Shown: one piece after another, positions 22,501-62,520 of the stretch
Numbering within the stretch: the stretch's first letter is position 1
Layout of the letters: each line of letters begins with the position of its first letter
From: Octopus vulgaris
Lineage: Eukaryota
Length of the DNA stretch: 64,000 nt
Direction: 5' to 3'
NCBI GenBank assembly: GCA_951406725.2
Contig: OX597817.1
Coordinates: 33,604,001 to 33,668,000 of the forward strand
Made by a program: the position numbers and the translations under genes
Notes under the pieces: generated by a model
The model's input: the letters and a program-made list of their open reading frames with translations, nothing else
Database searches by the model: none
Told to the model about the DNA's origin: nothing

Positions 22501-22890
22501 TAGACTTTCTGACGAGGTTGTCAACAGTGATTATGGTAGCCGTAAATATAATTATAATGTTTCCTTATTTTATATTATTATTCACCCCTGTCATCATTGT
22601 GTGATGAATTGTTATGCATTTTTGTTATGCCTTTTTGAATCAAGGCCTGAAACACGTTTCCGTCCTTGAAGAAAAAGTTAAGAATTTTTCGGGGGACTTA
22701 CATGTTGAAGAAATACTTAGCAATTGCAAACCTATAACAGACAGTATGATCGATATTATTGTTGTTCTATCGGTTAGCAAAATTGTATTGTAAGATTTCA
22801 GCAATATTTTGTGATAAATAATACATTGGGTGAAGAACCAATATAAATATATATATATATACGAGAAAGAAGCAACAAGAATGGATTAGT

Positions 22891-22981
22891 TTTTAGTACA
22901 ATTGTTTCATACAAAGACAGGCTTTATTACAAGTTGCAAAAATTGCAGCAGATAAAAGTGTCCCGTACTCATCAGCTAAAA
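22891..22981 (-). ncRNA. Type I hammerhead ribozyme (predicted)
   Basis: UUUUAG-CUGAUGA-[long stem II GUACGGGACA...UGUCUUUGUAU]-GAAA-C-AAUU-G-UA-CUAAAA; core intact and stem I (6 bp) complementary. Confidence 0.75.
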
Positions 22982-23095
22982 TACATATGAGTTCTCTAGA
23001 CATCTTAGTGGGTGAGGTTATACTCATGAAATATTGGAGATAATTCCATTAGAGGCAGATATAGGTTGTAAACAGTTTTCCAAAGTTCCTTAATG

Positions 23096-23286
23096 ATGAT
23101 GCACAGTCTTATCACAGATTTTTAAAAACTTATTAGTTTCGAAGAGAAGATGAATTAATCCATAGTGTAGATTTAAATTTCCAGAGATATGAGGAGAATG
23201 ATGCACAGACTTATCACAAGTTTTTAAAGATTTATTAGCTTCACAGAAAAGGTGAATTAATCCATAGTGAAGATTTAAATTTCCAG
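23096..23286. repeat. Imperfect tandem duplication, period about 102 bp
   Basis: atgatgcacag.cttatcaca...taatccatagtg.agatttaaatttccag occurs twice. Confidence 0.9.
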
Positions 23287-23446
23287 CGGTAAGAGGAGGA
23301 CTTTCATATTCACAGACGATGTATTTAACCATTATTAATCCACAATCATTTCATGTTATATGATAAGGTAATTTGTCATATTACTGCTCTCCGTGCAAAA
23401 CTGCTATGTTAAGATTTCTAAAGGCTGAAGGAATTTATTTGTGGGG

Positions 23447-23652
23447 CAAAGAAAATAAAAGAAAAGAAAAAAGAAAAAGAAAAAGGAGAAGAAGAAGAAA
23501 GAAGGAAAAGAAAAACAAAAAGAAAAACAAAAAACAAAAAACAAAGAGAAACGGGGGAGAAGGATAGAAAAGAAAAAGAAAGAGAAAAAGAAAAAGAAAA
23601 AAGAAAAAGGAAAAGAAAAAAAGAAAAAAGGGGAAGAGGGAGAAAAGAAAAG
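23447..23652. repeat. Purine-rich (A/G) low-complexity tract
   Basis: Directly visible. Confidence 0.9.
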
Positions 23653-58961: not shown

Positions 58962-59175
58962 AATGTCTCTCCTCGCCAGACATCGATGTGAAACTTCAAC
59001 AATTCATGTCTGTAATGCAAGCCATATGCTATAAATGTGTCCCAGAGAGAAAGGCCACTGTACACAAGAACAAAATCCCCAGAGAGAGGAAAATTTTAAT
59101 GAGACGGCGTACGAAATTTTCAAATCGCCTAAACAAACAGATTGAAAGCAGTGAAAAGTCCCGCCTAAAAATAAA
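58962..59175 (+). mobile_element. Duplicate of the first 214 bp of the adjacent LINE
   Basis: Matches 59435-59648 except for two substitutions I can see. Confidence 0.92.
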
Positions 59176-59435
59176 TATATTTATATATATATATATATAT
59201 ATTTATATATATATATATATATATATATATATATATATATATATATATATATATATATATATATATATATATATATATATATATATATATATATATATAT
59301 ATATATATATATATATATATATATATATATATATATATATATATATATATATATATATATATATATATATATATATATATATATATATATATATATATAT
59401 ATTTATATATATATATATATATATATATATATATA

Positions 59436-61688
59436 ATGTCTCTCCTCGCCAGACATCGATGTGAAACTTCAACAATTCATGTCTGTAATGCAAGCCATAT
59501 GCTACAAATGTGTCCCAGAGAGAAAGGCCACTGTACACAAGAACAAAATCCCCAGAGAGAGGAAAATTTTAATAAGACGGCGTACGAAATTTTCAAATCG
59601 CCTAAACAAACAGATTGAAAGCAGTGAAAAGTCCCGCCTAAAAATAAAACTGTTGGAAATCGAAAAATGTCTGCAACTCTCCCATGAAAAAGAAAGAGCA
59701 GACAAAGAAGCCTGGGCTATAGAAAACATAAAATCTAACCCCAGAGCTTTCTACAGGTATGCCAAAGAAACAGCTACAGTGCACTGTAGAATAGGGCCAC
59801 TCCTTGAAAAGGATGGCACACTTACAGGAAAACCAATGAGGGTAAGTGAAATACTGAATGAGCAATTCAAGAGTGTTTTCACTCCACCCCTTGGGCATCT
59901 CCAAATCACCAATCCAACTGACTTTTTTACCACTGCAGATATAAAATCAGAGGCGGCGACGATAGATTACATCGATATAAAGGAAGACGATGTAACCAAG
60001 GCTATAGATGAAATGAAAACAGACTCAGCTACTGGCCCCGATGGATTCCCGGCAATCCTCCTAAAAGCATGTAAGAGAGTCCTAGCAAGACCACTGCAGT
60101 TCCTCTTTCAGAGCTTCCTTGCAGCTGGCAAACTTCCAGGAAAACTGAAGGAAGGTAAAATATGCCCCATTCATAAAGGAGGTAGCAGAGCGGAAGCCAA
60201 GAACTATAGACCTATCTCTTTGACCTCACACATCAGCAAGGTCATGGAACGAATAGTCAGAAGGAAGCTGATCACCTTCCTTGAAGAGAATGACCTGCTG
60301 CCCGACACCCAACATGGTTTCCGACCAGGGAGAAGCTGTTTAACTCAGCTCCTACAACACTATGACTGGGTGCTGAAACGGCTGCTCAACCACTCAAATG
60401 TGGAAGTGATATATCTCGACTTTGCAAAGGCCTTTGATAAAGTCGATCATGGAATGATATGTCACAAACTGCGTGATCTCAACATAGTTGGAAAACTGGG
60501 AGAATGGCTTCATGACTTTCTGAAGGATAGAAGTCAGGTGGTAGTAGCCAATGGGGCCACCTCCATTAACACACAAATAGTGAGCGGTGTTCCGCAGGGC
60601 ACTGTTCTGGGACCACTACTGTTCATAATGGCCCTCTCAGACATGCCCTCAGCCACGCAGAGAGCCACGATCACAAGTTATGCAGATGATACAAAAGTCT
60701 CACAGGCAATACAGAACCCTGAGGACACTAAACACCTGCAATGTGAGCTGGACGAAATATACAAGTGGGCTGAAAAGAATAGCATGCAGTTCAATGCTGG
60801 AAAGTTTCAAGCTTTATACTATCAGCATGCAAAACTGAATGCAATACCCAATGAATACACTGGACCCGGAGGGATTGCAATCCCAGAGGCACAATCAGTG
60901 CGTGACCTTGGTATTCACATGAGTGATGACGCGACCTTTCATGTACATGTTGCTAAACTGACAATGAAATGTAGACGGCTGGCTGGATGGATTCTTAGAA
61001 CCTTTAGAACAAGAGAACAAGAAACCATGATGGTCCTCTGGAAGACACTTGTCCTAAGCCACTTTGACTATTGCTCTCAGCTATGGTCACCATCCAGTGT
61101 CAAGTTGATCACAGAACTTGAGGCGATCCAACGAAGCTACACAAAGAAGATAGCCTCTATGCAGAATGTAAGCTACTGGGAAAGACTCAAGAGATTAAAA
61201 TTATATTCCCTGGAGCGTAGGCGGGAAAGATATGCCATAATATACATCTGGAAGATCCTGGAGGAAGTGTCCTGAACTTTGGCATCGAGAGTTACGCAAA
61301 TGCCAGAACTGGGCGCCACTGCGTGGTGCCTAGGACTCAAACCTGCCATCAAGATGTAGGACAAGATACTGTGATAGCCTGGGCTTCCGAGGCCCACAGC
61401 TCTTCAATATCCTCCCGAAGAACCTGAGAGACCTGCATGGGGTGGATACAGATGTTTTTAAAATGAAGCTGGATCTCTTCCTGTCAGGTGTCCCAGATGA
61501 ACCAACTTCACGGCAGGAGGGGCAGATGAGGGCAGCTGCATCGAACTCTCTCATGCACCAAATAGCAGCTGCTAGAAAGCCTCCATGAAGTGAAACCAAG
61601 TAGCAACACAAAATGGCGGTGCCCCAGCATGGCCACAGCTCATAAGCTGAAACTAGAATCAATCAATCAATCAATCAATCAATCAATC
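59436..61688 (+). mobile_element. 5'-truncated CR1-group LINE with 3' UTR and (AATC)n tail
   Basis: RT ORF, 3' UTR 61589-61656, (AATC)n 61657-61688; flanked by (TA)n; no endonuclease domain or ORF1. Confidence 0.95.
59461..61588 (+). pseudogene. LINE ORF2 reverse transcriptase (604-aa open part, then two frameshifts near 61265 and 61340)
   Basis: GPDGFP, NYRPISLTS, QHGFRPGRSC, YLDFAKAFDKVDH, SGVPQGTVLGPLLF, YADD, RDLGI, DYCSQLWSP, LYSLERRRER; continues in shifted frames to GPQLFNILP...KPP*. Confidence 0.95.
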
Positions 61689-62245
61689 ATATATATATAT
61701 ATATATATATATATATATATATATATATATATATATATATATATATATATATATATATATATATATATATATATATATATATATATATATATATATATTT
61801 ATATATATATATATATATATATATATATATATATATATATATATATATATATATATATATATATATATATATATATATATATATATATATATATATATAT
61901 ATATATATATATATATATATATATATATATATATATATATATATATATATATATATATATATATATATATATATATATATATATATATATATATATATAC
62001 ATATATATATATATATATATATATATATATATATATATATATATATATATATATATATATATATATATATATATATATATATATATATATATATATATAT
62101 ATATATATATATATATATATATATATATATATATATATATATATATATATATATATATATATATATATATATATATATATATATATATATATATATATAT
62201 ATATATATATATATATATATATATATATATATATATATATATATA
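61689..62245. repeat. (TA)n array
   Basis: Directly visible. Confidence 0.98.
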
Positions 62246-62520
62246 GGTCCCGGGTTGATTCAGGGGTTAACCACAGTAAGTAAGGTACTCAATACATAGC
62301 AGAGTAAAATTAATTTATTATATAGAAGGAGCTTCTACAGGACTAGTACTGTTTCATTCAAGAGAAATCTTCAGGAAGCTATTTAACAAGAATTGTATTA
62401 GCATTTATACATTTAGGCAGGTTTAAAGGAGTGGTGGTGGGGGACTTTATGGGGGTAGGCATATGCGCAAAAATATCATACTTGGGGAGTGGTCAAGGAG
62501 TCAGTGGTAAGTTAGATGAA
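62246..62520 (-). mobile_element. Probable Penelope-like terminus abutting (TA)n
   Basis: Hammerhead fold followed on the minus strand by aataaa and a short tail ending at (TA)n, the same layout as at 22.9 and 54.6 kb. Confidence 0.6.
62330..62380 (-). ncRNA. Type I hammerhead ribozyme (predicted)
   Basis: AGCUUC-CUGAAGA-U UUC UCUU GAA U-GAAA-CAG UACUAGUC CUG-UA-GAAGCU; stem I 6 bp, stem III 3 bp plus the core A-U pair; stem II closed by U.U. Confidence 0.75.

What the first reader, a model, noticed from the sequence alone, without database searches (positions are those of the whole stretch)
22850..62520. Recurrent module: hammerhead, short tail, then (TA)n, in at least three independent families within 40 kb
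Seen: the loci at 22.9, 54.6 and 62.3 kb all have a type I hammerhead with a GUA site and a palindromic stem III or loop, with the element end abutting (TA)n; none has a recognisable intact ORF. Inference: a diverse set of TA-microsatellite-associated, ribozyme-bearing PLE (or retrozyme-like non-autonomous) families is abundant in this genome. At this density hammerheads could be very numerous genome-wide. This is the best candidate for an under-described system here, although PLE hammerheads as a class are known.
Basis: inference. Interest (0 to 1): 0.72.

Follow-up and report, generated by a model that had tools for sequence, protein, structure and literature searches.

The report
Hydra-type Penelope retrotransposon ends in microsatellites
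The three spots are cut-short tail ends of three young jumping-gene families of an already described group (Hydra-type Penelope-like retrotransposons); each family carries a predicted self-cutting RNA motif and sits back-to-back in TA repeats, so this is mostly ordinary, though the fixed long-plus-short pairing of ends likely records copying from both DNA strands at once.

Summary
Observation confirmed: four type I hammerhead cores at the three loci (0.005 per shuffle), each ending near (TA)n. The loci are 5'-truncated, head-to-head 3' ends of three high-copy families (E1, E2, E3). Full units elsewhere in G000 encode RT plus a C-terminal GIY-YIG endonuclease with Hydra-clade motifs. They are not retrozymes, and the system is described: Craig et al. 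2021 report hammerheads and (TA)n targeting for this clade, including an octopus family. (TA)n is the target, not a tail: internal copies lack it, and a filled/empty site pair shows it. A genome sample gave 17 motifs in 590 kb (0.1 shuffled); 12 of 17 lie within 200 nt of (TA)5, against 15% background. Each family has two fixed 3' ends. 65 of 68 head-to-head insertions pair one long with one short end, and 5' breakpoints coincide more than chance, which fits double priming on one RNA. This scan noted that pairing earlier on other DNA (e1-9501514, e1-10326545). Extras: E3 has a 3-kb microsatellite 3' UTR holding its own targets; E1 has a 60-nt stem II. Cleavage is untested. Verdict: new members of a known clade.

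The parts
22841..22861 (.). (TA)n target, left flank of the E1 insertion
22862..23986 (-). E1 arm, 5'-truncated 3' UTR ending at the short end (+36 to +41 nt after the predicted cut)
   Evidence: L209
22891..22981 (-). E1 type I hammerhead motif, 60-nt stem II, palindromic stem III, predicted cut after 22897
   Evidence: 759 exact matches of a 22-nt piece in G000
23096..23298 (.). 102-bp tandem duplication inside the E1 3' UTR (no hammerhead in it)
23984..24175 (+). E1 inverted arm: half hammerhead plus tail (24058-24175) to the long end (+154)
24176..24270 (.). (TA)n(TG)n, right flank of E1
54366..54381 (.). (TA)n at the end of a degenerate TA/TG array, left flank of E2
54382..54557 (-). E2 arm with the short end (+37 to +42); holds the hammerhead core 54448-54419
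   Evidence: L180
54558..54742 (+). E2 arm with the long end (+108); holds the hammerhead core 54605-54634, predicted cut after 54634
54743..54802 (.). (TA)n, right flank of E2
61689..62245 (.). (TA)n of about 560 nt, flank of E3
62246..64000 (-). E3 arm with the long end (+89); the microsatellite-rich 62.5-64 kb is its own 3' UTR, continuing about 1.17 kb past the window, then an inverted arm that runs into an N gap
   Evidence: (91.8% over 3066 columns to L101)
62330..62380 (-). E3 type I hammerhead motif, U.U at the base of stem II as in most Hydra magnipapillata families of File S2, predicted cut after 62336

Best explanation
The three loci are 5'-truncated, head-to-head 3' ends of three distinct young families of Penelope-like retrotransposons whose full units encode an RT plus C-terminal GIY-YIG protein with Hydra-clade motifs, and which were likely inserted by that protein into pre-existing (TA)n. 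Shown: the anatomy, the ORFs, two fixed 3' ends per family downstream of the hammerhead, (TA)n flanks, and one long plus one short end per pair. Inferred from established PLE biology (PMC8557442, PMC11167929): the endonuclease nicks (TA)n on both strands, each 3'-OH primes reverse transcription at one of two internal RNA sites, and the two cDNAs stop early and are joined head-to-head. Inferred here: both cDNAs come from one source RNA. The hammerhead is predicted to process tandem transcripts, probably as a dimer or with protein help. The template copied is mostly uncut at the hammerhead, since most arms read through the cut site.
For: ORFs: E2 has an open 727-aa frame between direct pLTRs (L096, L097). 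E1 has a 941-aa frame after a pLTR (L238). E3 has two overlapping frames (L099-L101). Motifs RW[K/R], DKT, YRDD, CxCX5C (E1, E3), CxxC and CxH match the clade description and Fig. S7 by eye.

Ends: 222 of 226 arms stop at one of two positions, and 211 of those 222 run into TA (de-duplication imperfect, at least one arm counted twice). At internal pLTRs the same end runs into the ORF with no TA. Filled site L099 against empty site L101.

Pairs: 65 of 68 are long+short, 2 long+other, 1 long+long whose partner is an internal pLTR with a short distal end, and 0 short+short (4 of 72 rows dropped as duplicates or cross-pairings). 5' breakpoints lie within 25 nt in 32 of 65 (permutation mean 11.5, max 23). 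Arms of one insertion are more alike than arms of other insertions in 47 of 54 rows (a few rows are repeats). 11 long arms against 1 short arm start downstream of the cut site, as expected if the long-site cDNA sometimes stops near the short-site primer.
Against: No tree with the published Hydra reference proteins was built. The E2 linker has Phe for the second Cys in 3 of 3 copies read, and E3 has RWR. Units are 3.4-5.3 kb against 'generally <3 kb'. Pfam found nothing for the E2 protein. No evidence of cleavage; the motifs fold no better than shuffles. Symmetric breakpoints and arm similarity could also come from central deletion or conversion in palindromes after insertion. Several searches used tail-containing queries, which under-sample short+short pairs; my hand count of tail-neutral pairs (and the genome sample) was 0 short+short of 31. 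In 9 of 33 asymmetric pairs the short arm stops first.
Confidence: 0.88

Rival explanations
1. Non-autonomous retrozymes: small non-coding tandem hammerhead repeats that replicate through circular RNA and are mobilised in trans.
For: The loci lack ORFs. Most copies are short: only 4 tblastn rows in 2 of 59 sampled stretches hit the E2 protein. A 2026 preprint derives retrozymes from PLE pLTRs (first part read).
Against: The sequences are colinear 3' ends of coding units with variable 5' truncation. Arms are inverted. The only direct repeats seen are whole 3.4-5.3-kb units. No short tandem hammerhead array turned up in the loci mapped.
Confidence: 0.04
2. Same elements, but the inverted arm arises by fold-back: one cDNA primed at the long site loops back and copies itself, or a self-primed antisense template is used (PMC3846280).
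For: Breakpoints coincide in 32 of 65 pairs, arms share variants, and junctions often sit at short palindromes.
Against: A fold-back from a long-site cDNA cannot give a short arm that reaches further upstream than the long arm, yet it does in 24 of 65 pairs (by up to about 1.3 kb). 11 long arms hold little more than the tail. It also does not explain a fixed second end.
Confidence: 0.2
3. (TA)n is added by the element's telomerase-related RT as a tail, or the adjacency is chance in a TA-rich genome.
For: (TA)5 runs are common: 658 in 590 kb. Some flanks are very long (560 nt). TA-like bases follow the ends within the element itself.
Against: Adjacency is 12 of 17 against 15% and 211 of 222 at the exact end. 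The empty paralogous site already has (TA)n. 30 of 63 solo arms have TA at the 5' side too.
Confidence: 0.06

Closest known systems
Hydra clade of C-terminal EN+ Penelope-like elements, incl. Hydra-1_Obim (Craig et al. 2021, PMC8557442; section 11, passages, supplement part 2 and Fig. S7 passages seen)
   Same: RT then GIY-YIG; DKT, RW[K/R], CxCX5C, CxxC, CxH; no CCHH; canonical hammerhead near the 3' end; (TA)n insertion; pLTRs, inverted 5'-truncated copies and a tail.
   Different: Hammerhead and protein sequences differ from Hydra-1_Obim by eye. Units are 3.4, about 4.7 and 5.3 kb with 1.2-3.1-kb 3' UTRs. Tails are about 66, 66 and 113 nt, not 30-40. E1 stem II is 60 nt. E2 linker is CxFX5C. 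E3 ORF is split in most copies.
Poseidon PLE of Anolis, PAc (Frangieh et al. 2024, PMC11167929; parts 1-2 of 4 read)
   Same: Two internal RT start sites defining a tail; both DNA strands cut and extended; AT-rich target; hammerhead not needed for insertion in vitro.
   Different: Different clade. There the start sites lie inside the ORF and are not homologous to the target. Here they lie between hammerhead and start codon, and short TA-like bases follow each of the six ends (not tested statistically).
Adineta vaga Penelope families (PMC3846280; passages seen)
   Same: Head-to-head inverted pLTRs with an optional tail on one arm; asparagine-rich insertions in the ORF, as in E1.
   Different: Low copy number there. 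The authors propose self-priming on an antisense template.
Minimal PLE hammerheads (Cervera and de la Pena 2014, PMC4209133; part 1 of 4 and passages) and non-LTR retrozymes (PMC7229834, search listing only; bioRxiv 10.64898/2026.07.22.740005, part 1 of 5)
   Same: Type I hammerheads with palindromic stem III; dual motifs on opposite strands 100-700 bp apart were already noted.
   Different: Retrozymes are non-coding tandem arrays; these are ends of coding elements.

Membership tests
EN+ Penelope-like elements | ORF with RT and C-terminal GIY-YIG endonuclease in full units | tested here: met
   (by motif and alignment; Pfam gave no hit for E2)
EN+ Penelope-like elements | pLTR/tandem and inverted 5'-truncated structure with optional tail | tested here: met
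Hydra clade | DKT in place of DKG; RWK motif | tested here: met
   DKT in 3 of 3 families; RWK in E1 and E2, RWR in E3
Hydra clade | CxCX5C linker | tested here: inconclusive
   met in E1 and E3; E2 has Phe for the second Cys in 3 of 3 copies; 116 of E2's 120 best homologues have the full motif
Hydra clade | CCHH absent; C-terminal CxxC and CxH present | tested here: met
   contrast the canonical PLE at L097:300-1823 with two Cys inside GIY-YIG
Hydra clade | Canonical hammerhead near the 3' end and (TA)n insertion | tested here: met
Hydra clade | Generally short (<3 kb) with a single ORF (descriptive in the paper, not diagnostic) | tested here: not met
   units 3.4-5.3 kb; E3 in two frames in 78 of 100 listed copies, one-frame length in 18
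Hydra clade | Phylogenetic grouping with reference Hydra RTs | not tested
   reference sequences seen only in the paper's supplement; compared by eye
Non-LTR retrozymes | Non-coding short tandem units each with a hammerhead | tested here: not met
   46 TRF rows past 52 kb were not shown
Non-LTR retrozymes | Abundant circular RNA | not testable with these tools
   only contigs of runs guessed to be RNA were available
Active hammerhead ribozyme | Self-cleavage at the GUA site | not testable with these tools
   core and stems present; no activity data

The most novel reading that the evidence does not exclude
In Hydra-clade PLEs double priming is the rule: one RT-endonuclease complex cuts both strands of (TA)n and primes two cDNAs at two fixed sites on one uncut RNA, the downstream polymerase displacing the upstream cDNA. 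That gives exactly one long and one short end per insertion. Tens of thousands of such insertions in this genome form a natural data set for the unsolved PLE integration mechanism, and E3 also carries its own (TA)n landing sites in its 3' UTR.
Probability: 0.5. Interest if true: 0.5.

Novelty: new member of a known kind. Interest (0 to 1): 0.3.

Why it matters
As a class it is known, so the value is modest. What it adds: (1) scale. Hydra PLEs were described from a few aquatic invertebrates; here at least three young families account for a large part of some tens of thousands of hammerhead motifs, and E2 has 1,935 protein homologues at E<=1e-20, so the clade is much larger than its published list. 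(2) Counts on the open question of how PLEs make head-to-head insertions. (3) E2 has open full-length frames, so the mechanism can be tested in vitro. (4) A caution for annotation: a 3-kb stretch that looks like host microsatellite is element 3' UTR.

Tried and rejected
Rfam scan: no hammerhead family reached E<=1. Single-strand folding: no stability signal for the three motifs; only the E1 tail folds strongly (z -5.69). Pfam: nothing for E2; a spurious weak hit for the E3 C-terminal part. Short E3 core query: no candidates, because common words are skipped. RNA: no RNA holder listed on record; four runs laid were contigs only, with no start/end pile-up or circular joint to read. Not evidence either way.

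Pile-up of 5' ends at the hammerhead cut site: 4 of 204 arms within -3..+4, of 65 between -50 and +40, so no excess. A breakpoint hot spot just upstream of the hammerhead was considered and left unclaimed because of ascertainment. Naiad origin for E1 (long stem II resembling 'half core' cases) was rejected: its endonuclease is C-terminal. E3 as the source of the genome's microsatellite load was rejected: 624 exact matches of a UTR anchor times 23 TA runs is under 1% of about 3 million runs extrapolated. The pattern count is not a hammerhead count: it has no stem check, it double-lists some cores, and only 11 of the first 30 loci had stem I >=4 as matched.

Paper searches found no report of these three families or of long/short pair counts. 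The library lacks most subscription journals and Repbase/Dfam, and an octopus repeat annotation lists 31 recently active Penelope-like families without mention of ribozymes (PMC13282606, passages; its supplements not read), so the families may already be in a repeat library.
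Full report
Observation. The hammerhead motifs are real. A descriptor scan found four strict type I cores at the three named loci, against 0.005 per local dinucleotide shuffle. The 54.6-kb locus holds two, in an inverted pair. Rfam did not detect them and they fold no better than shuffles as monomers. Weak monomer folding is what PMC4209133 describes for PLE hammerheads, but it also means activity is unshown. The host is likely an octopus; this rests on my recall of the SINE sequences in the window and on genome size and contig number, not on a call that names it.

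Families. Each locus is one copy of a high-copy young family, with 1159, 1096 and 1233 first-look candidates (40 scored each) and best matches 98-100% identical. Full units share only short patches of DNA, at most 152 nt at 68-81%. E2's protein is 36% identical to E1's and 46% to the N-terminal frame of E3's. Of 30 loci per family, 25 (E1, two imperfectly), 27 (E2) and 28 (E3) ran into TA sequence directly after the query end; the other 5, 3 and 2 continued into conserved family sequence. Following those led to coding units. E2: pLTR, open 727-aa frame, 1.2-kb 3' UTR, pLTR (L096, L097). E3: two overlapping frames of 506 and 225 aa and a 3.1-kb 3' UTR (L099-L101). E1: pLTR, a 941-aa frame with two asparagine-rich insertions, and a 3' UTR of about 1.7 kb (L238).

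Identity. The proteins carry RW[K/R], DKT, YRDD, a CxCX5C linker (CxFX5C in E2), no CCHH, and C-terminal CxxC and CxH. These are the features by which Craig et al. define the Hydra clade, for which they also state canonical hammerheads and (TA)n insertion. Their File S1 lists Hydra-1_Obim from an octopus, and File S2 shows the same U.U at the base of stem II as E3 in most Hydra magnipapillata families. By eye Hydra-1_Obim differs from all three. I built no tree with the references. E2's protein has 1,935 homologues at E<=1e-20 among 7,991 candidates scored; 116 of the best 120 have CxCX5C.

(TA)n is the target. 222 of 226 mapped arms end at one of two positions per family: E1 +36-41 or +154, E2 +37-42 or +108, E3 about +23 or +89 from the predicted cut. 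211 of the 222 are followed by TA (at least one arm was counted twice). At internal pLTRs the same sequence runs on into the ORF without TA. An E3 pair sits inside a (TA)n run in the 3' UTR of another E3 copy (L099), while the paralogous copy L101 has the uninterrupted run. In 59 stretches chosen at round coordinates, 17 motifs lay in 11 stretches, against 0.1 in shuffles. 12 of 17 were within 200 nt of (TA)5 against 15% background: 7 of 7 for E2/E3 and 5 of 10 for other sequence types. Straight extrapolation gives about 8 x 10^4 motifs, with wide error. A stem-free pattern gave 34,398 matches against 3,557 for its control and overcounts.

Mechanism. All three window loci are head-to-head insertions. 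After dropping 4 of 72 rows as duplicates or cross-pairings, 65 of 68 insertions pair a long with a short end and none pairs short with short. The single long+long row involves an internal pLTR whose distal end is short. 5' breakpoints of the two arms lie within 25 nt in 32 of 65 pairs (permutation mean 11.5, maximum 23), and in 12 of 31 when both arms pass -60 (mean 4.2, maximum 12). Arms of one insertion are more alike than arms of others in 47 of 54 rows. Where they differ, the long arm stops first in 24 and the short arm in 9, and 11 long arms hold little more than the tail. Frangieh et al. showed two internal start sites and extension of both strands for a Poseidon PLE, with the hammerhead dispensable in vitro. 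I therefore infer double priming on one uncut RNA (about 50%). Simple fold-back fails for the 24 pairs. Post-insertion symmetric deletion or conversion of palindromes could still contribute to the breakpoint match and the arm similarity. Only 4 of 204 arms begin at the cut site, so cleaved templates are not the rule.

Extras. Window 62.5-64 kb is E3's own 3' UTR, with 23 (TA)5+ runs, so the element carries its own targets; at 624 anchor matches this is a negligible share of the genome's microsatellites. At E3's frame break, 78 of 100 listed copies (162 in all) have the length that splits the frame, 18 the one-frame length and 4 other lengths; 28 copies are identical over 401 nt. This suggests a recent burst of a sub-lineage mobilised in trans, or a homopolymer miscall.

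Comparison and verdict. It works like, and by motifs belongs to, Hydra-clade PLEs; it is not a retrozyme. Seven paper searches found no account of these families or of pair counts, with the library limits noted above. Earlier notes of this scan reached the same clade and the same long/short pairing on other DNA; I had stated that reading before looking, and the notes are not independent evidence. New members of a known kind; interest 0.3.

Noticed in passing
window 59437-61688 (+): 5'-truncated LINE with a 612-aa RT frame (Pfam RVT_1, E 9e-31) ending in (AATC)n and lying between long (TA)n arrays; the CR1/L2-like label is recalled. Near-identical copies occur in L241 and L245.
   Followed up: no
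window 26595-26958 and 28531-29088: 184-bp SINE-like units in tandem (2 and 3 copies), the two arrays inverted to each other.
   Followed up: no
L123, L126, L128, L145, L155, L158, L175: Other hammerhead families in the genome sample, several with stem II inserts of 17-63 nt like E1; their parent elements were not traced.
   Followed up: no
L097:300-1823 (+): A canonical PLE with a CCHH-type GIY-YIG domain, directly followed by a full E2 unit.
   Followed up: partly
L099, L101, L249-L278: E3 ORF split into two frames at a C-run in 78 of 100 listed copies; 28 copies identical over 401 nt. An inverted pair on C8 near 17.99 Mb has one arm of each length.
   Followed up: partly
L149:7061-7127; L237:1501-1617: Insertions made of the tail alone (between the two fixed ends) within TA repeats.
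   Followed up: partly
L095:3813-5558 (+): Intronless 582-aa frame that looks like a family X DNA polymerase (label recalled, not tested), close to an E1 pair.
   Followed up: no
window 12154-12552 (-), 41644-42210 (+): Mariner-like transposase fragments (label recalled).
   Followed up: no
L238:4673, L097:2148, L101:2276 and the short ends upstream: Short TA-like bases follow each of the six fixed ends within the elements, and 28 of 32 E3 long ends keep them before the TA run; may reflect primer-template pairing. Not tested against chance.
   Followed up: partly
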